Of a stretch of DNA of 64,000 bases, positions 11,395-59,505 are shown in pieces. The translations under genes and the position numbers were made by a program. The notes below the pieces were generated by a model. That model was not told where the DNA came from and did not search any database. It saw only the letters and a list, made by a program, of their open reading frames with translations. This DNA comes from Acidimicrobiales bacterium (GTDB lineage Bacteria > Actinomycetota > Acidimicrobiia > Acidimicrobiales > CATQHL01), in the NCBI GenBank assembly GCA_963664235.1, contig OY760933.1, forward strand, positions 76,503 to 140,502, given 5' to 3'. Position 1 is the stretch's first letter. Each line of letters opens with the position of its first letter.

Positions 11395-12423
11395 CTATCC
11401 GACCAGGTGCGGTGCCCGCTGGGCCAGGCGCAGGAGCCGGGTGGCGTTGCCGTTCAGGGTCGCCATCAGATCGGCCACGTCGGGACCGGTGCCCTTGTCC
11501 CAGCCACCGAAGTTGGTGCCGTAGACCAATTGGTCGGTGCCGAGGGCGTCGGCCACGAAGGAGAACTCGCGGGCACCGGTCACGTGGCAGTCGAACCAGA
11601 GCCGAGCGAGCTGCTGGTCGAAGACGCCGGCGGGCTTCAACCATTCGGGCGAGGCGGGGCGACGCTCGGCCAGCTTGCGCAGCTTCGAGAGCACGAGGGC
11701 GAGCGATCCGCCGCCGTGACTGAGACAGATGTCCAGCGCCGGATGGCGGCGCAACACCCCGCCGAAGATCAGCGTGGCCGCGGCCAGGGCCTCCTCGAGG
11801 GAGTACTCCAGCACCAGGTCCAGATCCCAGCGGCGCAGACGTTCGTCCAGCAGCGCGCCGTCGATGCCCGATTGGGTCGGATGCAGGAACAGGGGCACGT
11901 CGAGCTCCACACAGGACTCGTACAGGGCGTCGAGGACCGGGGAATCCAGCGGCGTGCCGAAGTCGGTGCCGATGTAGCCGCCGAGCAGCCCCAAGTCGCT
12001 CACGATGCGCTGGAGCTCCGCGCAGGCCGCGTCGATGTCCTGCATGGGCAGGGCGCCGAGACCCACGAACCGGCCGGGATGGTCGGCGACCACCTCGGCG
12101 AGGCTGTCGTTGTGGGCACGGCAGAACTCGACGGCCGCCGGCGCGTCGATGAAGTGCAGGTAGGTCAGCGGGTTCGGCGACAGCGCCTGCACGCTGATGC
12201 CGGCGGCGTCCATGGCGGCGAGGCGCATGTCCACCTCGATGAACAGCGATCCCCGGTAGGCCACGCCGTCGAGTTGGTAGTTGCCGACCCGGAACCAGGG
12301 GCTGCCGTCGGGGTGGTAGCCGATCTCGGGACCGCAGGCCCCGGCCTGGCCCATCGATCCCTCCAGCACGATGTGGCCGTGCACGTCGATGAGGCCATCT
12401 GCCAGACCATCTGCACTTCTCAC
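11395..12423 (-). CDS. Amidohydrolase_2 family metal-dependent hydrolase/decarboxylase (ACMSD-like)
   Basis: Start set at GTG 12423, in a GTGA overlap with the upstream stop. It opens with the metal site LIDVHGH and also has ...PLFLHP... and ...GTNFGGWD.... Confidence 0.75.
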   Translation of the reverse strand: MRSADGLADGLIDVHGHIVLEGSMGQAGACGPEIGYHPDGSPWFRVGNYQLDGVAYRGSLFIEVDMRLAAMDAAGISVQALSPNPLTYLHFIDAPAAVEFCRAHNDSLAEVVADHPGRFVGLGALPMQDIDAACAELQRIVSDLGLLGGYIGTDFGTPLDSPVLDALYESCVELDVPLFLHPTQSGIDGALLDERLRRWDLDLVLEYSLEEALAAATLIFGGVLRRHPALDICLSHGGGSLALVLSKLRKLAERRPASPEWLKPAGVFDQQLARLWFDCHVTGAREFSFVADALGTDQLVYGTNFGGWDKGTGPDVADLMATLNGNATRLLRLAQRAPHLVG

Positions 12424-29190: not shown

Positions 29191-30690
29191 ATGCCCGCCC
29201 CGGGTGACGTAGCCGACGTCGTCGTCGTTGGAGGCGGCCCGGGCGGATGTGCCGCAGCCCTCGAAGCGGCACGCGCCCGCGCCTCGGTGGTGCTGCTGGA
29301 GGCCCTGGACAGCGTGGGGGGCAACGCGGCGCGGTCCACCGGCTACATGGCATTCGCCGACTTCGAGGCCCAGCGCGCCGCCGGCATCAGCGACTCACCG
29401 GAGGACTACCTCACCGACATGGTCGCCGAGGCGGAGCTCCAGGAGGAGCGCTACGGGGTGATCTTCGACACGGCCCTGGCCGGCCGCTACGCCGCAGAGT
29501 CGGCCGACGCCTACCGGTTCCTCCTCGACCTGGGGTTCGGGTTCGGCCGCTTCGTGCCGCGCCCGCGCCAGCACACCATCGACCGCATGATGGATGTGGT
29601 CGACGTGGCCTCCTTCGGCACCCTGTTCGCGGCCGCTCTGACCGGCGCGGGCGTGAAGGTGCGCTGCGGCGTGCGCGCCCGGCGCCTGCACACCGACTCC
29701 GGCAGGGTCACAGGAGTGCTCTGGGAGCCTGCCAGTGGCGGAAGCGAAGGCGACGGCACCGACACCCGGCCGGGCTTCCTCGAGGCCCGACACGGGGTGA
29801 TCCTGGCGGCCGGCGGGTACCAGGCGAACCACGCGCTGCGGTCGCGCTACCAACCCGGCTACCTGGCCACCACCCCCTACCTGGGCGTCGACACCGACCG
29901 CGGCGACGGGCACCTCATGGGCCAGGCCATCGGCGGCGACCTCATCAACATGACGATGATCCCGCCGCTGGTGATGGTGGCCTCCGCCCTGGTGGAGGAC
30001 TCCATCGCCGTGGACTCAACCGGGCGGCGCTTCGGTGACGAAGCCGGACCCTACGACGAGCGCGTGGCGGCCCTCGAAGGCGTCAGCGAGCGGCGGGCGT
30101 TCTACGTGTTCGACGACCGTGTGCACCGGCTGCGTCGCGACCTCATCGAGCAGATGCCCCAACCGGCGGTCAGCGCCCCGACGATCGCGGAACTGGCCGG
30201 CCTGATCGGCTGCCCACCCGACGCTCTCGCCGCCACCGTCGAGGAATGGAACGCCACGGTCACCTCTGGAACCGAGCAGGATCCGGTGTTCGGGCGGGTC
30301 GTATTCGGCAAGTCCCGCCATCCCATCGCGCAGCCGCCTCTGTGGGCGTCACCCATGGTCGTCGGCGTCAACTTCCCCGCCGGCGGGTTCCGGGTGTCGC
30401 TGGACTGCGAGGTCCTCGACGTGTTCGGAGACGTGATCGGCGGCCTGTTCGCCGTCGGCGACTGCGTGGGCGGGATCGCCCCTGCCATCGGCCTCGGGGG
30501 CGTGAAGATCTCCAGCGCGGTGACCCTCGGGCGGATCGCCGGCAGGGTGGCCGCGGCGGGCGGCGGGCAGGTCCCCCCAGCCGCCGGCCCCTCCGCGCAG
30601 GCACCCGTCGATCCCGTCGCCACCGCCGACACGCCGGATGCGCCGACCGCCGGCGGTGGCTCGGGTCAGCGCATCCCCATCGTCGGCTGA
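29191..30690 (+). CDS. FAD-dependent oxidoreductase (FAD_binding_2; KstD / fumarate-reductase-flavoprotein-like)
   Basis: It has the motif DVVVVGGGPGGCAAALEAA...GGNAARSTG and the C-terminal flavin motif ...GLFAVGDCVGG.... Start taken at ATG 29191. TTG 29161, which overlaps the VOC stop, is an alternative. Confidence 0.75.
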   Translation: MPAPGDVADVVVVGGGPGGCAAALEAARARASVVLLEALDSVGGNAARSTGYMAFADFEAQRAAGISDSPEDYLTDMVAEAELQEERYGVIFDTALAGRYAAESADAYRFLLDLGFGFGRFVPRPRQHTIDRMMDVVDVASFGTLFAAALTGAGVKVRCGVRARRLHTDSGRVTGVLWEPASGGSEGDGTDTRPGFLEARHGVILAAGGYQANHALRSRYQPGYLATTPYLGVDTDRGDGHLMGQAIGGDLINMTMIPPLVMVASALVEDSIAVDSTGRRFGDEAGPYDERVAALEGVSERRAFYVFDDRVHRLRRDLIEQMPQPAVSAPTIAELAGLIGCPPDALAATVEEWNATVTSGTEQDPVFGRVVFGKSRHPIAQPPLWASPMVVGVNFPAGGFRVSLDCEVLDVFGDVIGGLFAVGDCVGGIAPAIGLGGVKISSAVTLGRIAGRVAAAGGGQVPPAAGPSAQAPVDPVATADTPDAPTAGGGSGQRIPIVG

Positions 30691-37262: not shown

Positions 37263-38366
37263 ATGACAACAGCCCAGAGGTCCGAGCGTCGCCGCGACTG
37301 GATCCCTGAAGAGCCGGTCGACTTCGCGCCCGTCTTCGTCTGGCCCCCGCAGCCCAAGGCGCTGGCGAAGTACTTGTTCGGGTGGGGCGGCTTCCTGTGG
37401 CCGTGGCGGATCATCTGGCTCGGCCTGGCCATCGGTTCGTGGTACTGGCTGTCGCCGGACCTCGCTCAGGCCCGCAACCTCGAGGTGGGCTGGATCGCCA
37501 CGATCTTCGTCCGGAACCTGGTGTTCATATGGCTCGTCGCCGGCGGGATCCACTTGGTCCTGTACACGCTGAAGCTGCAGGGAACCGACCTCAAGCACGA
37601 CCCGAGATGGCTCTTCGTGGGCCGCCGCACGTTCCTCTTCAAGTCCCAGGTTCGCGACAACGTGTTCTGGAGCTGCGTGAGCGGCGTGACTCTCTGGACG
37701 GCCTGGGAGGTGCTGTTCTTCTACGGCTACGCGCACGGTTGGGTGCCGTACCTCGGGTGGTCCGACAACCCAGTGCTGTTCGTGCTGCTCTTCGGTGTGG
37801 TTGTTCTCTTCCGCAAGATCCACTTCTACTTCACGCACCGGCTCCTGCACTGGGGGCCGCTGTACCGCAGCGCCCACTACCTGCACCACAAGAACACCAA
37901 CCCGGGGCCGTGGTCGGGCATGGCCATGCACCCCCTCGAGCACCTCATCTACCTGAGCTCGGTGGTCATCCACTTCGTGGTGGCCTCGCACCCCGTCCAC
38001 ATGATGTTCAACATCTTCGAGACCGCCCTGGCGCCCGCGCACGGCCACACCGGGTTCCACGGCAAGACCGTCAAGGGGAAGCTGCCGGTGGGCGACTACT
38101 TCCACTGGCTGCACCACCGCTACTTCGAGGGCAACTACGGCGAGAACGTGATTCCCCTCGACCGCTGGTTCGGCACGTTCCGGGACGGCCCACCCGACGG
38201 CAGCCCCGGCGCACCCCTGCCGACCGAGCGCCACTACGAACTCGCCGGCGAGGATCCGCGCGGACGGGTCGCCGCCCGGGGCGCTCCCCCGCTTGCGCAG
38301 AATCGCCGGCCAGCCCTTCAAGCGCCTGCAATCTCCGGTGGAAATAGGCTGCATTTCACTGTCTGA
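37263..38366 (+). CDS. Membrane fatty-acid hydroxylase / sterol-desaturase superfamily enzyme
   Basis: Start taken at inner ATG 37263. It has several hydrophobic helices and the His boxes HRLLH, HYLHHK and HWLHHRYF. The last ~55 codons are low-complexity with poor third-position GC and may not be the native C-terminus. Confidence 0.75.
   Translation: MTTAQRSERRRDWIPEEPVDFAPVFVWPPQPKALAKYLFGWGGFLWPWRIIWLGLAIGSWYWLSPDLAQARNLEVGWIATIFVRNLVFIWLVAGGIHLVLYTLKLQGTDLKHDPRWLFVGRRTFLFKSQVRDNVFWSCVSGVTLWTAWEVLFFYGYAHGWVPYLGWSDNPVLFVLLFGVVVLFRKIHFYFTHRLLHWGPLYRSAHYLHHKNTNPGPWSGMAMHPLEHLIYLSSVVIHFVVASHPVHMMFNIFETALAPAHGHTGFHGKTVKGKLPVGDYFHWLHHRYFEGNYGENVIPLDRWFGTFRDGPPDGSPGAPLPTERHYELAGEDPRGRVAARGAPPLAQNRRPALQAPAISGGNRLHFTV
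38022..38094. repeat. Direct repeat A (internal piece of the hydroxylase gene), duplicated at 39758..39830
   Basis: By hand alignment there are 5 mismatches in 73 nt against 39758..39830. It encodes ...LAPAHGHTGFHGKTVKGKLP.... Confidence 0.8.
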
Positions 38367-38415: not shown

Positions 38416-39702
38416 ATGGAGTCGGCCGGCAACAGCGGTCCGCTCACACCCCATGGGTATCGGCAGCGGACCGCCGATGCGCTCATGACCTGGGCGTTGA
38501 GCAGTTCGCCCATTGTCGCGGTCGAGGGCGCACGGGGTGTGGGCAAGTCCTGGACCAGCCTTCGGCATGCTTGCAGCGAGGTGCGTCTCGACCGGGACCG
38601 CAGAGCTGCCGAAGCGGCGGCGTTGTGGCCCCGCAGAGTGCTCGAAGGCGCTCGACCGAGGCTGGTGGATGAGTGGCAGCTCGCCCCGGGTCTGTGGAAC
38701 GAGGCTCGGCACGTCGCGGACGCCGAGACGGGTCGAGGGTTGTTCATCTTCACGGGATCGGCGCATCCGCCCGACGATCACACTCGACATTCCGGCGCCG
38801 GCCGCGTGATGCGGGTGAGGATGCGACCGATGTCGCTCGCAGAGTCTGGAGAGTCGACCGGAGAGGCGTCGCTGGCGTCCTTACTCGACGGCGCCGACTG
38901 CTCCGTGGGCACACCTCAGGCATCGGACACCGACGTTGTGGAGGCGCTCTGCAGAGGCGGCTGGCCGAGGCATCTCACTATGGGCGTGGCGCAGGCACAG
39001 GCCCTGTGCCGCGCCTACCTCTCAGAAATCGCTCGCGTGGACATCGGAAGGTTGGATGGCGCAAGACACCGCCCCGAACGTGTCATGAGACTCTTGGAGT
39101 CGCTGAGCCGCAACACCGCAACCGCCGCCGCAGCATCCACTCTCGCCGGCGACATCGCCGGCGACGCTGCGCCGTCCCGCGACACCGTCTCGGACTACAT
39201 CGAATCCCTCAAACGGGTGTACGTGGTGGAGGACCTGCCTGCCTGGTCGGTCCACCTGAGGTCTCGTGCGCGGCTGCGACGTTCGCCCAAGCGCCATCTG
39301 GTGGACCCGTCGCTCGCCGTAGCGGTCCTGGGTGCCGGTCCCGAGCGACTCTGGCGAGATCCGGGATTCCTGGGCCAGGCGTTCGAGTCGCTGGTGGTGC
39401 GTGACCTACGGGTCTACGCGGACGCCAACGAGGCATCCGTCCACCAATACCGCGACAGCAACGGCCACGAACTCGATGCTGTGGTTCAACGCTTCGACGG
39501 CCGATGGCTGGCCGTAGAGGTCAAGCTCGGGCCGGGTGATCGCGTCGACGAAGCGGCCCGGTCGTTGAACGCCGCCTGCGAGCAAATCGACTTCGACCGG
39601 GTCGGCCCGCCCGCGAAGCGGCTGGTGATCACCCCGTCGGGGTACGGTTACGAACGGCCCGACGGCGTCACAGTCGTGCCCGTCACGTCGCTCGGCCCGT
39701 GA
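38416..39702 (+). CDS. AAA ATPase with DUF4143-type C-terminal nuclease-like domain (COG1373-like), paralog 1
   Basis: It has Walker A GARGVGKS, Walker B LVDEWQ and the C-terminal ...HELDAVV...WLAVEVK... (D...E.K). It is a paralog of 58234..59505 and has the same terminal ...GYGYERPDGVTVVPVTSLGP. Confidence 0.75.
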   Translation: MESAGNSGPLTPHGYRQRTADALMTWALSSSPIVAVEGARGVGKSWTSLRHACSEVRLDRDRRAAEAAALWPRRVLEGARPRLVDEWQLAPGLWNEARHVADAETGRGLFIFTGSAHPPDDHTRHSGAGRVMRVRMRPMSLAESGESTGEASLASLLDGADCSVGTPQASDTDVVEALCRGGWPRHLTMGVAQAQALCRAYLSEIARVDIGRLDGARHRPERVMRLLESLSRNTATAAAASTLAGDIAGDAAPSRDTVSDYIESLKRVYVVEDLPAWSVHLRSRARLRRSPKRHLVDPSLAVAVLGAGPERLWRDPGFLGQAFESLVVRDLRVYADANEASVHQYRDSNGHELDAVVQRFDGRWLAVEVKLGPGDRVDEAARSLNAACEQIDFDRVGPPAKRLVITPSGYGYERPDGVTVVPVTSLGP

Positions 39703-39706
39703 CAGA

Positions 39707-39757
39707 TCGGTTACGGAGCCCCGGCGGGCCTCAGATGCGGTGGACGCGCTCGGCGTT
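39707..39757 (-). pseudogene. Orphan copy of the 3' end (last 9 codons plus downstream tail) of the lactonase-like gene
   Basis: It aligns with 44813..44865 with 4 mismatches and a 2-nt indel by hand. It reads NAERVHRI* on the minus strand, against NAERVYRI* in the real gene. Confidence 0.75.
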
Positions 39758-39830
39758 ACCGCGCTCGCACCCGCGCACGGCCACACCGGCTTCCACGGCA
39801 AGACCGTCAAGGGGAAGCTGCCGGCGGGCG
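39758..39830 (+). pseudogene. Orphan internal fragment of the fatty-acid-hydroxylase gene
   Basis: It is a copy of 38022..38094 and begins at the base immediately after the lactonase fragment. Similarity is lost after ...gctgccggcgggcg. Confidence 0.75.
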
Positions 39831-39882
39831 GTTCGGTCTGCGGTGACTCCCGCCACGCCGAGGACAGGCAGTGCTCTGGGGG

Positions 39883-42814
39883 TCAACTCGGGGGGTCTTC
39901 GTCACCGAAGTTGAGCCAGCATTCGGAGGTGCCGTCGGGGCGCAGGCCGCAGGTGTGCCATCCGTCGGCGGTGAGGGCGGTGAGGGGGCCCGGTGGGACG
40001 CTGTATCGAATTCTGCTCACACTCCGGCCGCCACCGGGGCCGCTGCCCCAGCATTCGGGGGTGCCGTCGGGGCGCAGGCCGCAGGTGTGGAACCAGCCGG
40101 CGGCGATGTCGGTGAACGGCCCCGGCGGGGCGTCGGTCTGGCGGTAGAAGTTGTCGCCCCAGCACAGCACGTCGCCGCTGTCGCGCAGCGCGCAGGTGTG
40201 TTCGAAGCCGGCAGCGATGTCGGTGAGCGTGGTGGCCTCCAGCCACGCCGGCGGGCCGGCGGACTCGCCGGCCCATTTGGATCCCCAGCATTGGTAGCCG
40301 CCGCCGCGGCGGGTCGCGCAGCCGTGTTCACGGAACGCGTTCCAAACGCCGGTCTCCTCTCCCGAGCCGATGTCGAGGGCGGTGAACGGCCCCGCCAGGC
40401 GCAGTGTCACGGCGCTCTCCTCGTCGGCGGCGAACAGGTCCCAGCAGATCACCGATCCCGTGGCGCGGATGCCGCAAGCTTCGCGGCGACCCACGGCCAC
40501 GGAGGTGATAGCGCCGTCGGGCGCCGCGTACGGCTCCCCGTCGCGGATCTGCCAGCAGGACACGACGCCGCCGCGGCGGATCCCGCAGGCGGCCCACCAG
40601 CCGACGCTGACCGCCGCGAACACCCCGGCCGGTGGCGGGTGGTCGACGAGCCCCCCGTCGATCCCCGTGCGCCAACCCCAGCACGCCACGCTGCCATCAT
40701 CGCGGAGACCGCATGCGTGGTAGTGGCCGGCGTCGAGGGCCGCGAGCCCGCCGCGTGCCGTGTACGACTGCAGCCAATCCGCCATGGGGACTTCGCGGAA
40801 CCGCCGCCAATTGCGCCACGGCCGCTTGTTCCTATCGGAGTAGTCAAGGAACCCTGCCCAGAAGTGAAGCTGATCGACGGTCCTGTAGCCGCCGGGCGCG
40901 CCGGCGCGCTCGTCGGGCAGGCCCGCTCCCGGTGGCCACCCGTCGGCCCAGCACTCCACGGTGCCCGCCGGGCGGATCCCGCAGTAGTGATCCCCTCCGG
41001 AGCTGACGACCGTGAACGGCCCCTCCGGCAGCGCGTCGGAGCCCGATCTCGTGCAGTCGACCGTGCCGCCCGCGGGCTGGCAGGAGTCCATAGCCCACCC
41101 GCGCACCACAGGCAGCACCTCGCCGCTCCCCGCCGACGGGCCGCTGCGGTCGCGCCGGCATACCAATTCCCACGTGGCACGATTCCCGCACTCGTAGTCC
41201 CCGAGGCGAATCGTCCGGAATAAGACCCGACTTCGCTCGGCGTCGTGGACGGGCGTCCGCGCCGACAGCGGGTTCCGACCGGCCATCTCCCTGCTCAGGC
41301 CCCAGCACACCGCCTCGCCGGCGGGGCGCAAACCGCACGCGAAGCGATAGCCGGCGCGGATCGCCGTGAACCGCCCCGGCGGCGGGTGGGTCGCCCACCA
41401 GCTACTCGACCCCCAACACGCCACCTCGCCGGCGGGACGCAGACCGCACGTCAAGCTCGCGCCGGCGCTGAGCGCGGTGAACCGCCCCGGCGGCGGCTCG
41501 GTCGCGCCGTTCTCGTCGTAGCCCCAGCACGCCGCCTCGCCGGCGGGGCGCAAACCGCACCCGTGATACTGCCCCATGCTGATCGACGCGAACTCGCCCT
41601 CCGGCGGCGACCAACCCAGCGGCACCGCCCCCCAACACACCACCTCGCCGGCGGGACGCAGACCGCACGTGTGACTGGAGCCGGAGTCCAGCGTCACGAA
41701 CAGCCCCGCCGGCGGGCGATACCCCACCTCCGCGTCGTTCCAACACGCCAACGACCCGTCGACGCGAACCCCACAGATCGAACCGGGGAAGACCAGAGGC
41801 GATCCATGCTCGAGCAGCGCCGGCACGGCAGCGATCGCCACGAACGGCCCGCTCGGCGCCGGCGCCATCCCCCACCCCGGGCACGGCGCGGAAAAATAAC
41901 CCGTGCAATCCCACGCCAGCTTCTCCCTGCCCCAGCACGCCACCTCCCCGCCGGTTCGCACCCCGCACGTGAACTCCATCCCCGTCGCGATCGCCGAGAA
42001 CGAACCCTCCGGAGGCGACGCCTGCCCCGCGTCGTTGGCACCCCAACACTCCACCGACCCCCCAGCCCGGAGCCCACAACTGTGCGAAAAGGAGACGCTG
42101 ACCGCCGTGAACACGCCCCCCCGCAGCACCGGCGCCGAATCGCGCGACCAACACACCAGCATGCCCCCGACACGGATCCCGCACGCGTAGGGCCCCCATC
42201 CCACCGACACCGCCTCGAACACGCCTCCCGGCGGCGCGAATTCCTCAACGCCCGGACCCCAACACGCCAACGATCCCCCGGCACGGATCCCGCACGCGTG
42301 CTCGTCGCCCACGCTCACCGCCGAGAACGACCCCGCCGGCGCCGACCACTCCCCCCCTTCCACCGCCCCCCAACACACGAGCGCGCCACCGACACGAACC
42401 CCGCACGCGACCCGCGGGCCCACACTCACAGACACGAACCGCCCGTCCGGCGGCATGTCACGACGATCCTCGCTCCATCCCCCCCCAACACGCCACCTCA
42501 CCACCCGCCCGCAACGCACACCCCACCCGGCCGCCCAGACTCACCGACACAAAACCCTGCCCCGCACCGTCACTCGCCGGCAGCGCCTCCGGCGCCGAGC
42601 CACTGCCCGCCGCGACAGAACCCCCACCGTCCGCCGCCGGCGCGCCGGGAGCCTCCACCGCCGGCGCGCTGGGAGCCTCCACCGCGTCGCCGCGGACCGA
42701 CGAAACCGCCACATCGCCCTCCGAAGCAACAGAACACGATGCGGCCGCGAGGGCGACGACCAGCAGCGCGATGCCGGTCAGGCGCACCCCTCCCCCCCGG
42801 CGGCGACTCATCAC
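39883..42814 (-). pseudogene. Secreted RCC1-repeat (beta-propeller) protein with a possible lipobox, interrupted by a +1 frameshift in a G8 tract
   Basis: ORF 42458..42814 carries the signal peptide MMSRRRGGGVRLTGIALLVVALAAASC and the first blade. ORF 39883..42519 carries many blades with the pattern F..V..G..H.CG.R..G...CWG. The two join at the homopolymer 42479-42486, and G7 would restore ...EVACWGGWSEDRRDMPPDGRF.... Confidence 0.8.
42479..42486 (-). repeat. Homopolymer G8 (C8 on the plus strand) at the RCC1 frameshift
   Basis: Counted directly: ...catCCCCCCCCaaca... on the plus strand. Confidence 0.9.
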
Positions 42815-42996
42815 GAAACCCCGCCCGGCACCCGAGTCATCGACGCCGGGCGTGCACCGGCCTGCCGCGGCGAATCGTCGAATCCGGTCGAGGAGGGAGA
42901 GGACATGCCTGCGGAAACCCCAGCCGCCGGCTCGTTCAGCGGGTCGTCGTCGCTGACGTTCAGCCAGCAGTCGTCTTCCCCGCTCGTCGACAGCGG

Positions 42997-43140
42997 TATG
43001 AGAACTTCGATCTCCGATACAGACAGATATTCATATATATTCGATCTGTTGTCCAATATTATACAGCTACTTGATCGTATTGAAGAATATCATTATTGTT
43101 CAGGTGCTATATTGAGATCCTGATACTTTCTAGATTTCAC
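42997..43140. other. AT-rich patch in a GC-rich context, with an imperfect palindrome at 43023-43049
   Basis: The patch reads ...gtatgagaacttcgatctccgatacagacagatattcatatatattcgatctgttgtccaatattatacagctacttgatcgtattgaagaatatcattattg.... The arms acagat and atctgt flank an AT core. It lies upstream of the RCC1 gene start and next to the IS3 scar. Confidence 0.7.
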
Positions 43141-43171
43141 GCAGGTTGTGGTGTTCGTCGGATTCACGCCG

Positions 43172-43325
43172 TCAGCTTGCTTGATTTCGGGCACCGGTGG
43201 TGGTGTGACGGGTCTCGTATTCCACGGGCGTGTGCATGTCGAGTGGAGAGTGTCGTCGTTGCCGGTCAGTGACCTGCCGCCCCAAGAACTCGGGGCAGGC
43301 CAGAGCCTCCAATACCCGGGGTCGT
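43172..43325 (-). mobile_element. IS3-family transposase (rve integrase domain) C-terminal remnant
   Basis: The minus-strand translation is *RPRVLEALACPEFLGRQVTDRQRRHSPLDMHTPVEYETRHTTTGARNQAS*. The RRHS.L...P.E(Y/F)E tail is typical of IS3 OrfB C-termini. It is bounded upstream by an in-frame stop, so only about 50 codons survive. Confidence 0.6.
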
Positions 43326-43414
43326 TAACCGTGACCTGGGCACTCACAGGAACCCATACCGCGCTAGGGATCCAACCACTGGAGGGGGACGGTTCGCCGT
43401 GAGGGTCGCCGGAC

Positions 43415-44686
43415 CTACCGAGGCCTGCGCGGGACGCTCCTGATCGGCTCCGAGACGAGGGTGTCTCCCCCCGGGCTCGCGAGCTGCCGTTCCAGCGCCG
43501 TGAACTCCTCGATGACTTCGGGGGCCTCGAACGCACGGTTTCGCCGCCCGAGGGTCACCTGCGCAAGAATGCCGGCTCCCACGAGCCGCTCGATCGCCTG
43601 GTTGGTCGCCTGGAACGACCGTCCGATCAACTCCGAGGCCGTCGTGGCGGTCAGCAAGGGCGCGCCCGGCAATGCGCGAACGAGCAGATCAGCTGCCGAG
43701 TCGCGGCGCACTGACCCGAGCCGCTCTCGCCAAGAGTCCTGGAGCGTACGCACCTGCTCCTCGAAGCGCCCGGCGTCGGTGGCGGCCCGCCGGCATGCGC
43801 TCGCGAACAGCGCGATCCAACCGTTGAGACCGGCGCGGGCTTGCTCGGATTCGGGCGCGCCTTCATAGCGGGTCCCCATGAGTCCACCCACGTAGTCGCG
43901 AGGCCATGTGGCGAGGATCAGCGAGACCGGGGGAAGGACGCGCGGCGCGAGTCCGCGCCGTCGCAACACCAGGTGAATCAGCGCACGCCCCGTGCGCCCG
44001 TTCCCGTCGACGAACGGATGGATCGTCTCGAACTGTGCGTGGGCAATGGCCGCCTGCGCGACCGCTGGCAGGGAGTCGTCATTGCAGAACGAGGCGAGGT
44101 CCGCCACCAGCGCATCGACCAGGTCGTGCGGCGGTGGCACGAAGGCCGCCGAACACGGGTTGTAGTCGCTGCCGCCGATCCAGTTCTGGACGGCACGGGT
44201 GCGGCCGCCGTGGCCGGCGAGACGCGTACCGGCGAGCAGGCGGCGATGCGCCTCCTTCACGATCTCCACGGTGATCGCCCCCCTCGGCGGCACCGCCTCG
44301 GTGGCCCAGAGCATCGCCTCGATGTTCCCGAGCACCTCCACGGCGGTGATGTCGCTCGGGTCCTCGCCGAGTTGGCGGGCGGCCTGGGCACGGAGGAGCC
44401 GGCGGCCCCCCACCTCCAAACCTTCGATCCGGGAAGAGGCCACCGCTTCGGCGCGAAGCAGCAGCCGGGCCAGCGCCTCGGTGCCGGCGAGCGCGCCCGC
44501 CGTGGCGTCGAGCCGGGCGAGTGCCGCTTCGGCATCGGCGACATCGGCCGCAACATCGCCGTCGAGCAAGAAGCGCCGACCGACGAGGGGGTCGGGGATA
44601 TAGACCTCGTAGTCGCAAGGACGGCGATCGCGGCGTGTGAGGCCACGATCGTCGCCCGCCCAGTTCCGCGTTTCCAACCGAGCCAT
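43415..44686 (-). CDS. Fic/DOC family protein (Fido domain) with an N-terminal inhibitory-helix motif
   Basis: It has the Fic motif HPFVDGNGRTGRA, and an N-terminal SSRIEG that matches the (S/T)xxxE(G/N) inhibitory motif. Start set at ATG 44686, preceded by GGAAGG. The track start at 44704 is a TTG. Confidence 0.8.
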   Translation of the reverse strand: MARLETRNWAGDDRGLTRRDRRPCDYEVYIPDPLVGRRFLLDGDVAADVADAEAALARLDATAGALAGTEALARLLLRAEAVASSRIEGLEVGGRRLLRAQAARQLGEDPSDITAVEVLGNIEAMLWATEAVPPRGAITVEIVKEAHRRLLAGTRLAGHGGRTRAVQNWIGGSDYNPCSAAFVPPPHDLVDALVADLASFCNDDSLPAVAQAAIAHAQFETIHPFVDGNGRTGRALIHLVLRRRGLAPRVLPPVSLILATWPRDYVGGLMGTRYEGAPESEQARAGLNGWIALFASACRRAATDAGRFEEQVRTLQDSWRERLGSVRRDSAADLLVRALPGAPLLTATTASELIGRSFQATNQAIERLVGAGILAQVTLGRRNRAFEAPEVIEEFTALERQLASPGGDTLVSEPIRSVPRRPR

Positions 44687-44697
44687 CTCGACCTTCC

Positions 44698-44726
44698 TAT
44701 TCAAGGATACAATACAACCTTGAATA
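44698..44726. promoter_or_regulatory. Perfect 9-bp inverted repeat just upstream of the Fic start (candidate operator)
   Basis: TATTCAAGG-atacaatacaa-CCTTGAATA lies 11 nt upstream of ATG 44686 and abuts the RBS. Confidence 0.4.
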
Positions 44727-44812
44727 CAGGTCCCGGCAATTCACGGCGGAGGTGAACCCCTGCCGACCCGCCGGCGGGAGTCCGTAGCAACGAAGGAGCT
44801 AGACGGCCCCGC

Positions 44813-44865
44813 TCGGTTAACGAGCCCCGGCGGGCCGCTCAGATGCGGTAGACGCGCTCCGCGTT
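44813..44865. repeat. Direct repeat B (lactonase 3' end plus downstream tail), duplicated at 39707..39757
   Basis: See 39707..39757. Confidence 0.8.
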
Positions 44866-46966: not shown

Positions 46967-48475
46967 TCAGCCGCCGGCGAGTTCCAGGAGGGCGCCGGTG
47001 GTGATCTCATCACCCTGCAACTCGGCCACGATGGCGCCCTTGGTCATGACATAGACCCGGTCGGCGACCTGGAAGGCCTCCTCGTAGTCCGAGGTCACCA
47101 CCAGTACGCCGACTCCGCTGGAAGCCAGATCGCGCAGGGCGCCGTAGATGTCCTCTCTGGCACCCACGTCGACGCCGCGGGTGGGTTCCACGAGCACCAG
47201 CACGTCAGACTGGTTCTCCAACCAGCGAGCCAGCAGGACCTTCTGCTGGTTGCCGCCCGACAGGGTGCCCATGATCTGCTGGGGGTCGTTGCGGGAGCGG
47301 ATCGAGAGCTTCTGGTGCCAGCGCTGGTAGGCCTCGGCCTCGGTGGCCTTGCGGATCCAGAATCCGTACTTGGCGAGACGCTGCCAGGAGGCCACAGCCA
47401 CGTTCTCGGCAACCGGGCGAACCATGAACCCCCCTGCCGTCTTGCGCTCGGCCGGCAGGTAGCCGATGCCGGTGCTCACCGCGCCGATGGGACTCTCGGG
47501 CGCGTCCACGTCGCCGGTGCCAATCTGCAGCGCGCCTCGGTCGATCGACCGCAGCCCGAACGCCGTCTCGGCCACCTCGCTGGCGCCTGACCCGAGCTTG
47601 CCGTAGAGAGCCACGACCTCGTGCGCCCCGACCTCCAGGTTCACGTCGTTGAAGTAGTCCAGGGCGCCGGCACCGGACCACTGCAGCACGGGCGCGTCGT
47701 CCTCGCCGTTGCTGACCGGTTCGGGACGCCCCAACGCGCTGGCCCGCCGACCGATCATGGCCTCCACCATCATCTTGCGGTCCACCTCGCTGGTCGGCGC
47801 TTCGAGTGCCGTGGACCCGTCGCGCAGAACCTGCACCCGGTCCGAGATTCGCTCCACCTCGTCGAGGCGGTGCGTGATGTAGACGATCGCCACGCCGTCG
47901 GCCCGCAGGCGCCGCACGAAATCGAACAGAATCTCGGCCTCGTGGAAGCTGAGTGCCGCCGTGGGCTCGTCCAGAATGAGAACCTTTGCTTCCCGGCTGA
48001 GAGCCCGGGCGATCTCGATGATCTGGCGCTCCCCGAGTCGCAGGTCGCCCACGATCCGGTCCGGGTCGATGTCCACCTCCAGCGCCGAGAGGATCTCGGT
48101 GGCCCGGCGCCGCACCTCGCCCCAGCGGATGAAGCCTCGCGTCGAGGGCAGGCTGCCCATGGAGATGTTCTCCGCCACCGAGAGGGTGGCGGCGTCCTGG
48201 AACTCCTGGGAGATGATGGCGATACCCAACTCGCGGGCCTCCCGCGAGGTCAGGGTTTCGTAGGCGTGTCCCCCGATCCGGATCGTTCCCGAGTCGGCCG
48301 TGTAGACGCCTGAGGAGATCTTGACGAGGGTCGACTTGCCGGCGCCGTTCTCACCGAGCAGCGCCAGCACGGAGCCGCCCGAGGCGTCGAGGTCCACGCC
48401 ATGCAGGACCTCGACGCCTCCGAACGACTTGCGTATGCCGCGCGCCGCGAGGATCGGCTCGGACGGAGTCGCCAT
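46967..48475 (-). CDS. Sugar ABC transporter ATP-binding protein, two fused ABC domains (RbsA family)
   Basis: It has Walker A GENGAGKST, Walker B ILDEPTAAL, and a second signature and Walker B (LSGGNQQK ... LVLVEPTRGVD). Confidence 0.85.
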   Translation of the reverse strand: MATPSEPILAARGIRKSFGGVEVLHGVDLDASGGSVLALLGENGAGKSTLVKISSGVYTADSGTIRIGGHAYETLTSREARELGIAIISQEFQDAATLSVAENISMGSLPSTRGFIRWGEVRRRATEILSALEVDIDPDRIVGDLRLGERQIIEIARALSREAKVLILDEPTAALSFHEAEILFDFVRRLRADGVAIVYITHRLDEVERISDRVQVLRDGSTALEAPTSEVDRKMMVEAMIGRRASALGRPEPVSNGEDDAPVLQWSGAGALDYFNDVNLEVGAHEVVALYGKLGSGASEVAETAFGLRSIDRGALQIGTGDVDAPESPIGAVSTGIGYLPAERKTAGGFMVRPVAENVAVASWQRLAKYGFWIRKATEAEAYQRWHQKLSIRSRNDPQQIMGTLSGGNQQKVLLARWLENQSDVLVLVEPTRGVDVGAREDIYGALRDLASSGVGVLVVTSDYEEAFQVADRVYVMTKGAIVAELQGDEITTGALLELAGG

Positions 48476-58233: not shown

Positions 58234-59505
58234 CTAGGGACCGAGTGCTGTGAGGGGAACGACGGTGGTGCCGTCGGGACGTTCGTAGCCGTAGCCGGTG
58301 GCCGTGATGATCAGCAGCTTGGACGGCTCGGACGTGCGCGAGGTGTCCACCTTGTGGCGCAGGCGCAGCAGCGACCGGGCGGCTCTCTCGATGCCCTCGT
58401 CCGCGCCGAGCTTCACTTCCGCGGCGACCCAGCGCCCGTCGCGTGCTTCGACAATGGCGTCGACTTCCAGCGCGTCGCTGTCGCGGTAGTGGTAGACCGA
58501 GGCTCCGCCGGCCCCGCCGTAGATGCGCAGGTCCCGCACGACCAGCGACTCGAACAGGAATCCCAGCGCCTCCAGGTCGCCCAGCAGCAGCTGGGGACCG
58601 GCGGCCAGGGCCGCGACGGCCAGTGAGGGGTCCACGAAGTGTCTCTTGGCCGAGCCTTGCAACGTGGCCCTGGACCGCAGGTGCGAGCGCCACGCAGGAG
58701 CGTCCTCCACGATGAACAGTCGCTCCAGGGACCGCAGATACTCGGTGGCCGTGGTGCGGTTGAGGGGCCGGTCACCGGCGGCCTCGGCAGCGAGCCTGGA
58801 GAAGGATGCCGTCGTGGCCACGTTGCGTGCGATGGAGGCGATCAACCTGGCCACCCCGGCCGGGTCGCGCGCCACCCCGTCCACCGCGCTGACGTCGGTC
58901 CGGCAGAGTTCCGAGATGTAGCCGTCCAGGAAGAGTTGCGCGTCGGGCACGGACCGGCCAAGCAGGCGAGGCCAGCCGCCCCGGCAGAGCGCGTCGAGCA
59001 TGTCCCTGAAGTCGGCCTCCGGGCGGCGGGCCGCCACGGGCGCCCCCTCCAGCAGCGCCGCCAGCGACACGTCACCGGTGGACTCCCCTGTCTCGAGCAG
59101 CGACATGGGTCTCATCCGCACCCGGGCGATGCGCCCGGCACCGGAGTGCCGCGTGATGTCGTCCGGCGGGACCGCAGAGCCTGTGAGGATGAACCGCCCG
59201 GTGCGGTGCCCCTCGTCAGCGGCGTGGCGGATCTGGTTCCAGACCTCCGGTGCCAACTGCCACTCGTCGAGGAGACGAGGCTCTCCGCCCTCCAGCACCA
59301 GGCCGGGCACCAACGACACCGACCTGCGGGCGTTGAGGTCTCGATCGAACAGCACCTCACTGCGGGCGAAGCTGCGCCCCGTCCACGTCTTGCCGCACCC
59401 CTTGGGGCCCTCGATGACGACCGCGGGCATCGCGGCGAGCGCCCGTGTCACCGCGCCGTCTGTCACCCGCAGCTTGTAGCCAGCGGGCGTGAGCGTCTCC
59501 GGCAT
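58234..59505 (-). CDS. AAA ATPase with DUF4143-type C-terminal domain (COG1373-like), paralog 2
   Basis: RBS GGGAGG. It has Walker A GPKGCGKT, Walker B LLDEWQ and C-terminal ...LEVDAIV...WVAAEVK.... It aligns over its full length with 38416..39702. Confidence 0.75.
   Translation of the reverse strand: MPETLTPAGYKLRVTDGAVTRALAAMPAVVIEGPKGCGKTWTGRSFARSEVLFDRDLNARRSVSLVPGLVLEGGEPRLLDEWQLAPEVWNQIRHAADEGHRTGRFILTGSAVPPDDITRHSGAGRIARVRMRPMSLLETGESTGDVSLAALLEGAPVAARRPEADFRDMLDALCRGGWPRLLGRSVPDAQLFLDGYISELCRTDVSAVDGVARDPAGVARLIASIARNVATTASFSRLAAEAAGDRPLNRTTATEYLRSLERLFIVEDAPAWRSHLRSRATLQGSAKRHFVDPSLAVAALAAGPQLLLGDLEALGFLFESLVVRDLRIYGGAGGASVYHYRDSDALEVDAIVEARDGRWVAAEVKLGADEGIERAARSLLRLRHKVDTSRTSEPSKLLIITATGYGYERPDGTTVVPLTALGP

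What the first reader, a model, noticed from the sequence alone, without database searches (positions are those of the whole stretch)
39883..42814. ~976-aa secreted RCC1-repeat protein switched off by one base in a G8 homopolymer
ORF 42458..42814 holds a signal peptide with a possible lipobox (...LAAASC) and the first blade, and ends ...EVACWGGMERGSS*. ORF 39883..42519 holds many further blades. They are one gene in two frames.

The frames change exactly at a run of eight G on the coding strand (plus-strand C8, 42479-42486). With G7 or G10 the reading becomes ...EVACWGGWSEDRRDMPPDGRFVSVSVG..., which keeps the blade periodicity (CWG...PP.G.F..VS.G).

So the current state is OFF by a single homopolymer unit. 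Three explanations are possible: slipped-strand phase variation of a surface protein, a very recent inactivation, or a homopolymer sequencing error. A second G-rich tract (cgggggggagggg) lies in the signal-peptide codons near 42787-42798.
Basis: partly seen in the sequence, partly recalled or inferred. Interest (0 to 1): 0.66.

Follow-up and report, generated by a model that had tools for sequence, protein, structure and literature searches.

The report
Propeller lipoprotein gene broken at G8
A large surface lipoprotein gene of a sponge-associated bacterium is cut in two by one extra G in a run of G's; the insertion looks real, but nothing shows it is a deliberate on/off switch rather than a recent knock-out of a dispensable gene.

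Summary
Minus-strand ORFs 42458..42814 and 39883..42519 are one gene split at a G8 run (plus C8, 42479-42486). Removing one G gives a 976-aa protein. Its only close ortholog (69% identity) is intact, reads ...CWGGWGDDRRD..., and carries G7 at the same codons.

The protein has a lipobox signal peptide, a disordered linker and about 21 short three-stranded blades of the BLIP-II/CRINKLY4 type, probably forming three seven-bladed propellers.

G8 is unlikely to be an assembler artefact. An independent k-mer assembly of run ERR3887488 reproduces 1,093 bases, G8 included. Eighteen other window genes are intact.

Tests for a selected switch were negative. The number, length and 5' clustering of the G runs match what the protein sequence and codon usage predict, and the ortholog has fewer runs than expected. 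Ordinary genes here avoid such runs (0 observed, 7.8 expected); this gene does not.

The gene lies with a Fic gene in a 5.06-kb cassette flanked by 53-nt direct repeats. A 95%-identical relative lacks the cassette.

Best reading: a real, recent +1 slippage knock-out of a dispensable accessory gene. It could revert, but adaptive phase variation is unproven. Interest is modest.

The parts
39883..42814 (-). Whole gene (2,932 nt with G8; 976 codons plus stop once one G is removed)
   Evidence: The ortholog aligns end to end at 79.8% nt and 69% aa identity.
42734..42814 (-). Signal peptide with lipobox (MMSRRRGGGVRLTGIALLVVALAAAS|C, Cys27). The start is GTG 42812-42814 or ATG 42809-42811.
   Evidence: The PS51257-type pattern is met in the window protein and the ortholog. 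Homology with the ortholog begins at 42816.
42563..42733 (-). Low-complexity Ala/Gly/Pro/Ser/Glu linker (aa 28-84)
   Evidence: pLDDT is 25-39 and there is no secondary structure.
42482..42562 (-). Blade 1 (aa 85-111, FVSVSLGGRVGCALRAGGEVACWG), encoded by the upstream ORF
   Evidence: Three strands, E88-94, E97-102 and E107-110, with pLDDT 88-92.
42479..42486 (-). G8 homopolymer (plus C8), the frameshift site within codons W-G-G
   Evidence: The ortholog has G7 here.
42458..42478 (-). Out-of-frame tail MERGSS and premature TGA (42458-42460) of the OFF product
39883..42478 (-). Rest of the gene in the +1 frame: blades 2-21 and stop codon 39883-39885. The inferred propellers are about 41737-42562 (with blade 1), 40945-41736 and 39913-40746, with a poorly modelled insert at 40747-40944.
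   Evidence: Blade parsing, model, BLIP-II/ACR4 matches. The 3 x 7 partition is inferred from the blade count.
42792..42798 (-). G7 tract in codons R-G-G-G of the signal peptide n-region
42351..42357 (-). G7 tract (codons E-G-G-E)
42116..42122 (-). G7 tract (codons R-G-G). The Logan contig L064 ends 2 nt beyond it.
43000..43130 (-). AT-rich patch (34% GC in a 69% GC genome) with a perfect TATAAT at 43058-43063; candidate promoter
   Evidence: The consensus scan found no full -35/-10 pair, so the promoter role is inferred.
39758..44812 (.). 5.06-kb strain-variable cassette holding this gene and a Fic gene (43415-44704, minus strand)
   Evidence: Absent from the 95%-identical relative L070, which jumps from 44813 to 39757. 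It is also absent from L065, L066, L071 and L072. Fic Pfam hit.
39707..39757 (.). Direct repeat, copy 1 (a copy of the last 24 nt of the Amidohydro_2 gene plus downstream sequence)
   Evidence: 88.7% identity over 53 nt with 44813-44865.
44813..44865 (.). Direct repeat, copy 2 (the genuine 3' end of the Amidohydro_2 gene and downstream sequence)

Best explanation
A genuine single-G insertion (G7 to G8), made by replication slippage, has put a 976-aa lipoprotein gene out of frame after blade 1.

The intact protein would be exported and lipid-anchored through its lipobox. A roughly 57-residue flexible linker would hold it away from the membrane. It would display about 21 disulfide-containing three-stranded blades, probably as three seven-bladed BLIP-II/CRINKLY4-like propellers, acting as a binding surface.

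In the G8 state only a 117/118-aa stub can be exported: signal peptide, linker, one blade and the tail MERGSS. Any product started at the internal Met (857 aa) lacks both the export signal and blade 1.

The gene is unusually slippage-prone because its 5' half uses G-ending codons (GGG is 38 of 88 Gly codons). W-G-G, R-G-G and G-G therefore become G7 runs, the kind of run this genome otherwise removes from its genes.

The gene is dispensable cargo of a strain-variable 5-kb cassette. The OFF allele is most likely a recent, non-programmed loss of function that drifted or was selected to majority in the sampled population. Back-slippage could revert it.

Shown: one gene in two frames; G7 is the in-frame state in the ortholog; G8 is present in two assemblies; the fold class; the cassette polymorphism; and the absence of tract enrichment. 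Inferred: slippage as the cause, recency, non-adaptiveness, the three-propeller partition and the binding function.
For: The ortholog P0002 is intact and has G7 at the same codons.

The exact 117-aa OFF product lies on Logan contig ERR3887488_4652, which is 100% identical to window 42114-43206 including G8. Logan builds k=31 unitigs directly from reads, discards k-mers seen once, and uses no polishing.

No other homopolymer of 5 or more bases in the window separates two coding-like frames. Eighteen other window genes give full-length Pfam domains.

There is only one lesion. 130 of 139 family-conserved columns are kept, and most of the nine exceptions are shared with the intact ortholog.

Tract statistics: the gene has 4 runs of 7 or more against 3.4 expected, and 9 runs of 6 or more against 9.1 expected. 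In contrast, 23 background genes have 0 against 7.8 (0 of 500 permutations) and 16 against 29. The 5' clustering is as expected (P = 0.06-0.16). The ortholog has 4 runs of 6 or more against 9.6 expected.

The cassette is absent in relatives and flanked by 53-nt direct repeats. The ortholog sits in a different gene neighbourhood.

As a precedent from mycobacteria, a 7G tract gains +1 at 3.14e-8 per generation, about 100 times the substitution rate (PMC10334774).
Against: No read pile-up could be inspected, and the two assemblies showing G8 may derive from the same sample or even the same reads.

Only one population and one ortholog exist in the searched collections, so tract-length heterogeneity could not be tested.

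A recent neutral knock-out and the OFF phase of a switch leave the same sequence signature.

dN/dS against the ortholog is 0.55. This is compatible with a fast-evolving functional surface protein and does not show relaxed constraint specific to this lineage.

The window copy has four tracts of 7 or more and the ortholog one. This could also reflect selection for mutability.
Confidence: 0.55

Rival explanations
1. Adaptive phase variation (contingency locus). The G tracts in the 5' quarter of the gene would be maintained because reversible slippage switches a surface-exposed propeller lipoprotein on and off, for example to escape host recognition or phage adsorption in the sponge. The sampled population would happen to be mostly OFF.
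For: The tract is early in the gene, at codon 111 of 976, in an exported surface protein.

Four G tracts of 7 or more lie within 700 nt, while 31.6 kb of ordinary genes have none.

The same W-G-G tract is kept as G7 in the ortholog, and the gene is otherwise pristine.

Homopolymer-tract phase variation on 7-8-nt G/C runs is documented in high-GC mycobacteria.
Against: Synonymous-codon permutation shows no excess of runs, of run length or of 5' clustering.

The ortholog is significantly depleted of runs.

Three of the four tracts are absent from the ortholog and rest on amino-acid differences.

Other family members carry 0-1 such runs.

No alternative tract length of this strain was found in 5.8 billion proteins or in JGI contigs.

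The measured slippage rate for a 7G tract in mycobacteria is low for a switch, about 3e-8 per generation.
Confidence: 0.22
2. Homopolymer-length error in the reads or the assembly; the organism really has G7 and an intact gene.
For: G8 is the longest homopolymer in the window and so the site most prone to a length miscall.

The source is a 3.49-Mb single contig, which suggests long-read data.

The sequencing platform of ERR3887488 could not be established.
Against: The identical G8 appears in a Logan k-mer assembly of ERR3887488. That assembly needs each 31-mer at least twice and keeps the better-supported path.

That run yields contigs 100% identical to the window over 1,093 nt, so its reads are accurate.

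The three G7 tracts and 36 G/C 6-mers cause no frame breaks, and 18 other genes are intact.
Confidence: 0.1
3. Programmed recoding. A +1 ribosomal frameshift or transcriptional slippage on the G8 run would restore the frame, so full-length protein is still made from the G8 allele.
For: GGG GGG G allows tRNA-Gly to re-pair in the +1 frame, and polymerases can slip on long homopolymers. Both points rest on general knowledge and were not tested here.
Against: The ortholog is encoded in a single frame with G7, so the shift is not a conserved feature.

No rare or stop codon follows the run; the next codon is ATG.

Rfam finds nothing in the window.

Known bacterial transcriptional slippage uses A/T runs of about 9 (own knowledge).
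Confidence: 0.03

Closest known systems
Homopolymeric-tract frameshifts in Mycobacterium tuberculosis complex (glpK 7C/7G, espK, PE_PGRS and others; PMC10334774, bioRxiv 10.1101/717272)
   Same: Both involve a high-GC genome. A 7-8-nt G/C run inside an ORF gains one unit, truncates the protein, and can revert by the same slippage. Tracts of 7 or more are rare in the genome.
   Different: In mycobacteria, recurrence across thousands of isolates and reversion in culture are demonstrated. Here there is one population and one allele, the organism is an uncultured sponge associate of uncertain phylum, and no phenotype is known.
Poly-G/poly-C contingency genes of Neisseria, Haemophilus, Campylobacter and Helicobacter (own knowledge)
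   Same: A surface-exposed protein gene with a G/C homopolymer near the 5' end whose length sets the reading frame.
   Different: Those tracts are usually 8 or more units long, are over-represented relative to composition, and vary between sibling cells. Here the runs are no more frequent than codon usage predicts.
BLIP-II, beta-lactamase inhibitor protein II of Streptomyces exfoliatus (PDB 1jtd, 3qhy, 3qi0)
   Same: A secreted actinobacterial seven-bladed propeller with short (about 40 aa) three-stranded RCC1-like blades. Foldseek TM-score is 0.70-0.72 normalised to BLIP-II, and the profile E-value is 7e-30.
   Different: BLIP-II is a single 270-aa propeller. This protein has about three propellers, a lipid anchor, a long linker and two conserved Cys per blade. 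Beta-lactamase binding was not tested.
CRINKLY4/ACR4 receptor-kinase ectodomain of plants (PDB 7a0j, 7a0k)
   Same: An extracellular seven-bladed propeller of short RCC1-like blades. It is the best sequence-profile hit (1.3e-30), with TM-score 0.68-0.75.
   Different: It is eukaryotic, has a single propeller, and is fused to a TNFR-like domain and a kinase.
Canonical RCC1-like domains (RCC1, UVR8, HERC2 RLD) and bacterial RCC1-repeat effectors such as Legionella LegG1 (PMC7542358)
   Same: Same superfamily by Pfam RCC1_2 and WD40_RLD and by fold.
   Different: Canonical blades are 50-60 aa with four strands and act inside eukaryotic cells. Here the blades are about 37 aa with three strands and the protein carries a lipoprotein signal, so it is likely extracytoplasmic.

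Membership tests
RCC1_2 / BLIP-II-CRINKLY4-type short-blade beta-propeller proteins | Repeats match Pfam PF13540 (RCC1_2) above the gathering score | tested here: met
   195.7 bits against a cut-off of 22, with 7 stretches.
RCC1_2 / BLIP-II-CRINKLY4-type short-blade beta-propeller proteins | Blades of about 37-40 aa with three strands that pack as a seven-bladed propeller similar to BLIP-II/ACR4 | tested here: met
   The model has pTM 0.72 and three strands per repeat. Foldseek gives E = 1e-15 and TM-score 0.72 to 3qi0_C and 1jtd_B, and 0.75 to 7a0j. The split into three propellers of seven blades is inferred from 21 blades.
RCC1_2 / BLIP-II-CRINKLY4-type short-blade beta-propeller proteins | Beta-lactamase inhibition or other defined ligand binding | not testable with these tools
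   Needs purified protein.
Bacterial lipoproteins | N-terminal signal peptide ending in a lipobox with an invariant Cys (PROSITE PS51257 pattern, Cys within residues 15-35, Lys/Arg near the N-terminus) | tested here: met
   The regex is met with Cys27 and RRR at residues 4-6. The same LAAASC is present in the ortholog.
Bacterial lipoproteins | Lipid modification by Lgt and cleavage by Lsp | not testable with these tools
   Biochemical.
Simple-sequence-repeat contingency (phase-variable) loci | Slippage-prone repeat inside the ORF or promoter whose length sets expression | tested here: met
   The G8 run lies at codons 110-112. G7 is in frame and G8 is out of frame.
Simple-sequence-repeat contingency (phase-variable) loci | Tract-length polymorphism within a strain or population | tested here: inconclusive
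   Only G8 is seen, in the window and in Logan ERR3887488. No other copy of this strain exists in the protein collection or in JGI contigs.
Simple-sequence-repeat contingency (phase-variable) loci | Repeat over-represented or longer than composition and codon usage predict, or conserved against synonymous drift | tested here: not met
   Runs of 7 or more: 4 against 3.4 expected. Longest run 7 (repaired) against 8.1 expected. The ortholog is depleted. 5' clustering gives P = 0.06-0.16.
Simple-sequence-repeat contingency (phase-variable) loci | Reversible, high-frequency switching with a phenotype | not testable with these tools
   The organism is uncultured.
Decaying pseudogene | ORF disrupted relative to an intact ortholog | tested here: met
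Decaying pseudogene | Further lesions or loss of conserved residues | tested here: not met
   There is a single frameshift. 130 of 139 conserved columns are kept and most deviations are shared with the intact ortholog. Pairwise dN/dS of 0.55 is uninformative about this lineage alone.
Programmed frameshift / transcriptional slippage genes | The frameshift and slippery site are conserved in orthologs | tested here: not met
   The ortholog is a single in-frame ORF with G7.

The most novel reading that the evidence does not exclude
The gene may be a true contingency locus of an uncultured sponge symbiont. An unusual G-ending codon bias in its 5' half would create several hypermutable G7-G8 tracts, in a genome that otherwise removes such runs. 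The population could then switch a large surface propeller lipoprotein on and off stochastically, for example to evade host phagocytosis or phage adsorption. This would extend homopolymer-tract phase variation from pathogens to mutualistic, uncultured symbionts, and to an accessory cassette gene.
Probability: 0.18. Interest if true: 0.55.

Novelty: new member of a known kind. Interest (0 to 1): 0.3.

Why it matters
If the G8 allele is real, it is a clean natural example of how a slippage-prone run inactivates a gene in a genome that otherwise avoids such runs. It also gives a concrete site where deep amplicon sequencing of sponge tissue could test whether symbionts use homopolymer switching on surface proteins.

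The work also defines a poorly described protein type: lipid-anchored proteins of about 850-1,040 aa made of BLIP-II/CRINKLY4-like propellers, seemingly three in tandem in this protein. They are common in sponge-type Acidimicrobiia and Chloroflexota MAGs.

For annotation, the 857-aa protein on record (P0001) is a truncated call and should be treated as a frameshifted gene.

Tried and rejected
Exact look-ups of the two neighbouring proteins, of P0001 and of the 878-aa ORF found nothing.

A search with the N-terminal 217 aa returned no near-identical fragment. It did not even return P0002, so it seems restricted to targets of similar length.

Two JGI metagenome scans for the tract flanks, allowing G6-G10, found nothing.

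The genome-contig scan did not contain the source genome or any close ortholog; the best hit was 39% identical.

Run accessions ERR3887488 and SRR23238833 are not mentioned in the paper library, so platform and host are unknown.

My first frameshift census used GC3 thresholds that were too strict and missed even the target. It was redone without them. The only other candidate was the C6 run at 30573-30578. It proved to be a normal boundary between a complete FAD_binding_2 gene and a complete glutaminyl cyclase gene.

G-quadruplex motifs as an explanation for the G-rich 5' half: none were found in the gene.

The long antisense ORF 41245..43074 is a by-product of the A-poor coding strand, which leaves few stop codons on the opposite strand.

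No Rfam family and no tRNA (a possible integration site) is present in the window.

The consensus promoter/terminator scan found nothing useful.

A split permease gene in related contig L071 was checked as a possible homopolymer error in a similar assembly. It is a 20-nt tandem duplication.
Full report
**1. The observation**

The minus strand between 39883 and 42814 carries two overlapping ORFs in different frames: 42458..42814 (118 aa) and 39883..42519 (878 aa). They meet at a run of eight G on the coding strand, which is plus C8 at 42479-42486.

Editing the run in silico gives one open frame of 976 codons (G7) or 977 codons (G10). G8 stops at codon 118 and G9 at codon 129.

The database holds the downstream part as an 857-aa protein, P0001. 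It is called from an internal Met on a 3,494,148-bp contig and is 100% identical, so that contig is the source genome.

The only close relative among 5.8 billion proteins is P0002 (1030 aa, 69% identity, 97% coverage) from Logan contig SRR23238833_3980. P0002 reads straight through the junction (...GGDVVCWGGWGDDRRDRSPGGRFVSVSVG...). Its DNA has TGT TGG GGG GGT TGG there, a G7.

The two ORFs are therefore one gene. G7 is the in-frame state and the window carries one extra G.

**2. What the gene encodes**

Pfam finds RCC1_2 repeats (3.4e-59) and the RCC1-like domain. The repaired protein parses as follows:
- a signal peptide whose LAAAS|C fits the PROSITE lipobox rule (Cys27, conserved in the ortholog);
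- a 57-residue low-complexity linker;
- 19 clear repeats of about 37 aa ending in CW[G], plus two degenerate ones.

An AlphaFold2 model built on 31 family members (pLDDT 74.6, pTM 0.72) shows residues 1-82 disordered and three strands per repeat. Blade 1, which lies in the upstream ORF, is modelled at pLDDT about 90.

The best structural matches are BLIP-II (TM-score 0.72 on the target), the CRINKLY4/ACR4 ectodomain (0.68-0.75), and then UVR8 and RCC1-like domains. A family profile hits ACR4 at 1.3e-30 and BLIP-II at 7e-30.

Each blade keeps two Cys ten residues apart: 20 C-x9/10-C units, many invariant in the family. This fits an extracytoplasmic, disulfide-bonded protein.

Twenty-one blades suggest three seven-bladed propellers; that partition is inferred. 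In the G8 state only a stub can be exported: signal peptide, linker, one blade and MERGSS. The internal-start product lacks both the export signal and blade 1. Its Met is not conserved; the ortholog has Arg at that position.

**3. Is G8 an artefact?**

The exact 117-aa OFF product (ATG start) is on record in one further place, Logan contig ERR3887488_4652. That contig is 100% identical to window 42114-43206, including G8 and two G7 tracts. The same run also holds the exact paralog P0031 of the source genome.

Logan builds k=31 unitigs directly from reads, discards k-mers seen once, and simplifies with Minia3, with no polishing (PMC12424806). G8 is therefore in the reads and on the best-supported path, and those reads are accurate.

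A census of all homopolymers of 5 or more bases found no other site separating two coding-like frames. The one doubtful case (30573-30578) is a normal gene boundary. Eighteen other genes give complete Pfam domains.

Two caveats remain. I could not see the reads themselves or learn the platform, and the two assemblies may share a sample. I rate an artefact at about 0.1.

**4. Is the tract a selected switch?**

Four of the five homopolymers of 7 or more bases in 64 kb lie in the first 700 nt of this gene. This looks striking but has a simple cause.

The 5' half uses G-ending codons. Third-position G is 0.52-0.61 there, against about 0.36 in other genes, and GGG is 38 of 88 Gly codons. W-G-G, R-G-G and G-G therefore become G runs.

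Permuting synonymous codons among identical amino acids gives these results:
- Runs of 7 or more: 3.4 expected, 4 observed.
- Runs of 6 or more: 9.1 expected, 9 observed.
- Share of simulated runs falling in the first 700 nt: 60-66%, so P(4 or more there) = 0.06-0.16.

The ortholog has fewer runs than expected: 4 of 6 or more against 9.6, with P(at least as many) = 0.997. Three of the window's four tracts are absent from the ortholog and rest on amino-acid differences. Other family members carry 0-1 such runs.

The informative contrast is with the rest of the genome. Twenty-three ordinary genes (31.6 kb) have no G/C run of 7 or more where 7.8 are expected (0 of 500 permutations). They have 16 runs of 6 or more where 29 are expected. 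Selection in this organism removes slippage-prone runs; in this gene it does not. That fits either neglect of a dispensable gene or tolerated mutability, and the sequence cannot tell them apart.

No tract-length variant of this strain exists in the collections.

**5. Genomic context**

The ABC-transporter ATPase at 46967-48475 has relatives at 82-98% identity. I fetched their contigs and aligned them with the window.
- In a Petrosia ficiformis sponge metagenome (LXNJ01000052 and JGI PetF_10000028; Horn et al. 2016, PMC5099237) and in L071, the amidohydrolase gene is followed directly by the fatty-acid hydroxylase gene.
- L072 has only the DUF4143 ATPase gene between them.
- L070 is about 95% identical at the DNA level. 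It jumps from window 44813 to 39757, so it lacks the Fic gene and this gene.
- L068 and L069 (94%) run into the first 90 nt of the Fic gene, and both contigs end there.

In the window, the 5,055-bp segment 39758-44812 is bounded by 53-nt imperfect direct repeats (39707-39757 and 44813-44865, 88.7% identity). These repeats contain the last 24 nt of the amidohydrolase gene.

The ortholog P0002 lies in a different neighbourhood, with PIN toxin and SGL genes and no flank homology. The gene is thus accessory cargo in a strain-variable spot of a sponge-associated bacterium.

**6. State of the gene apart from the frameshift**

The repaired protein agrees with 130 of 139 columns where at least 90% of 30 other family members agree. 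Five of the nine exceptions are identical in the intact ortholog, and most of the rest lie in one loop.

Pairwise dN/dS against the ortholog is 0.55 (dS 0.37), similar upstream and downstream of the tract. There is no second lesion. The inactivation is recent, or reversible, on the time scale of sequence divergence.

**7. Verdict**

The most likely reading (0.55) is a real +1 slippage mutation that recently knocked out a dispensable, unusually slippage-prone accessory gene. It could revert, but nothing shows that the tract is maintained for switching.

Adaptive phase variation remains possible (about 0.2). The closest documented analogue is homopolymer-tract variation in mycobacteria, where a 7G tract gains +1 at 3.14e-8 per generation, about 100 times the substitution rate (PMC10334774). 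Sequencing error (about 0.1) and programmed recoding (about 0.03) are less likely. Recoding is disfavoured because the ortholog is encoded in one frame.

This is a new member of a known kind of event and its interest is modest. The read pile-up over 42479-42486 would settle most of what remains open.

Noticed in passing
window 39883-42814 (minus strand); L001 1236-4328: There is a smooth 5'-to-3' gradient at synonymous sites. Third-position G falls from 0.52-0.61 to 0.13, T from 0.11-0.19 to 0.03-0.07, and C rises from 0.22-0.28 to 0.71. Other genes in the window sit near C 0.5, G 0.36, T 0.06. The ortholog shows the same gradient and paralog L063 a milder one; most other family members show none. 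No explanation was found, and no G-quadruplex motifs are present.
   Followed up: partly
window 39707-39757, 44813-44865 and the 39758-44812 segment between them: The Fic gene and the propeller gene form a 5.06-kb cassette flanked by 53-nt imperfect direct repeats. The repeats include the last 24 nt of the neighbouring amidohydrolase gene. The cassette is absent from a 95%-identical relative (L070) and from more distant syntenic contigs. No recombinase gene lies inside it.
   Followed up: yes
window 38034-38094 and 39770-39830: A 61-nt direct repeat (96.7% identity). A piece from inside the fatty-acid hydroxylase gene is copied just downstream of the propeller gene's stop codon, next to the cassette boundary. 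It may be a scar of an earlier arrangement.
   Followed up: no
window 42940-42993 (minus strand), next to the AT-rich patch 43000-43130: The reading LSTSGEDDCWLNVSDDDP resembles the family's C-terminal end (LRPDGTSECWLNFGDEDP): 9 of 18 aa and 34 of 54 nt, with tblastn E = 0.31. It may be a relic of a second family member truncated at the AT-rich patch. The evidence is weak.
   Followed up: partly
23 genes across window 3837-59505: Ordinary genes strongly avoid G/C homopolymers. Runs of 7 or more: 0 observed against 7.8 expected under synonymous-codon permutation. Runs of 6 or more: 16 against 29. Runs of 5 or more: 71 against 113.
   Followed up: yes
L064 (Logan ERR3887488_4652), end at window 42114: The independent contig stops 2 nt past the G7 tract 42116-42122. 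This could reflect a branch (tract heterogeneity), a repeat or low coverage. The cause could not be determined.
   Followed up: no
window 41245-43074 (plus strand): A 609-aa antisense ORF covers exactly the G/T-rich half of the gene. Its Pro/Arg/Thr/His-rich translation, together with the A-poor coding strand (few T, so few stop codons on the opposite strand), indicates a by-product rather than a gene.
   Followed up: partly
alignment A2 (31 family members): Two Cys ten residues apart are invariant or nearly so in most blades, suggesting one disulfide per blade. The longer homologues (about 950-1,040 aa) carry lipobox signal peptides. Many entries of about 830-870 aa do not match the lipobox pattern. 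Paralog P0031 has a signal peptide ending LLAGPC.
   Followed up: partly
L071 about 12340-12360, compared with L072: In a related strain, a 20-nt tandem duplication (TGATCGGGTTGGCCGGGCTC) splits the ABC permease gene. The gene is intact in a second contig (L072) from the same sample assembly, and the aligned 1.2 kb otherwise has no mismatch.
   Followed up: partly
window 58234-59505 and 38416-39702: The window holds two DUF4143/AAA_14 ATPase genes. The copy in relative L072, which occupies the same slot as 38416-39702, is only about 67% identical to either of them.
   Followed up: no
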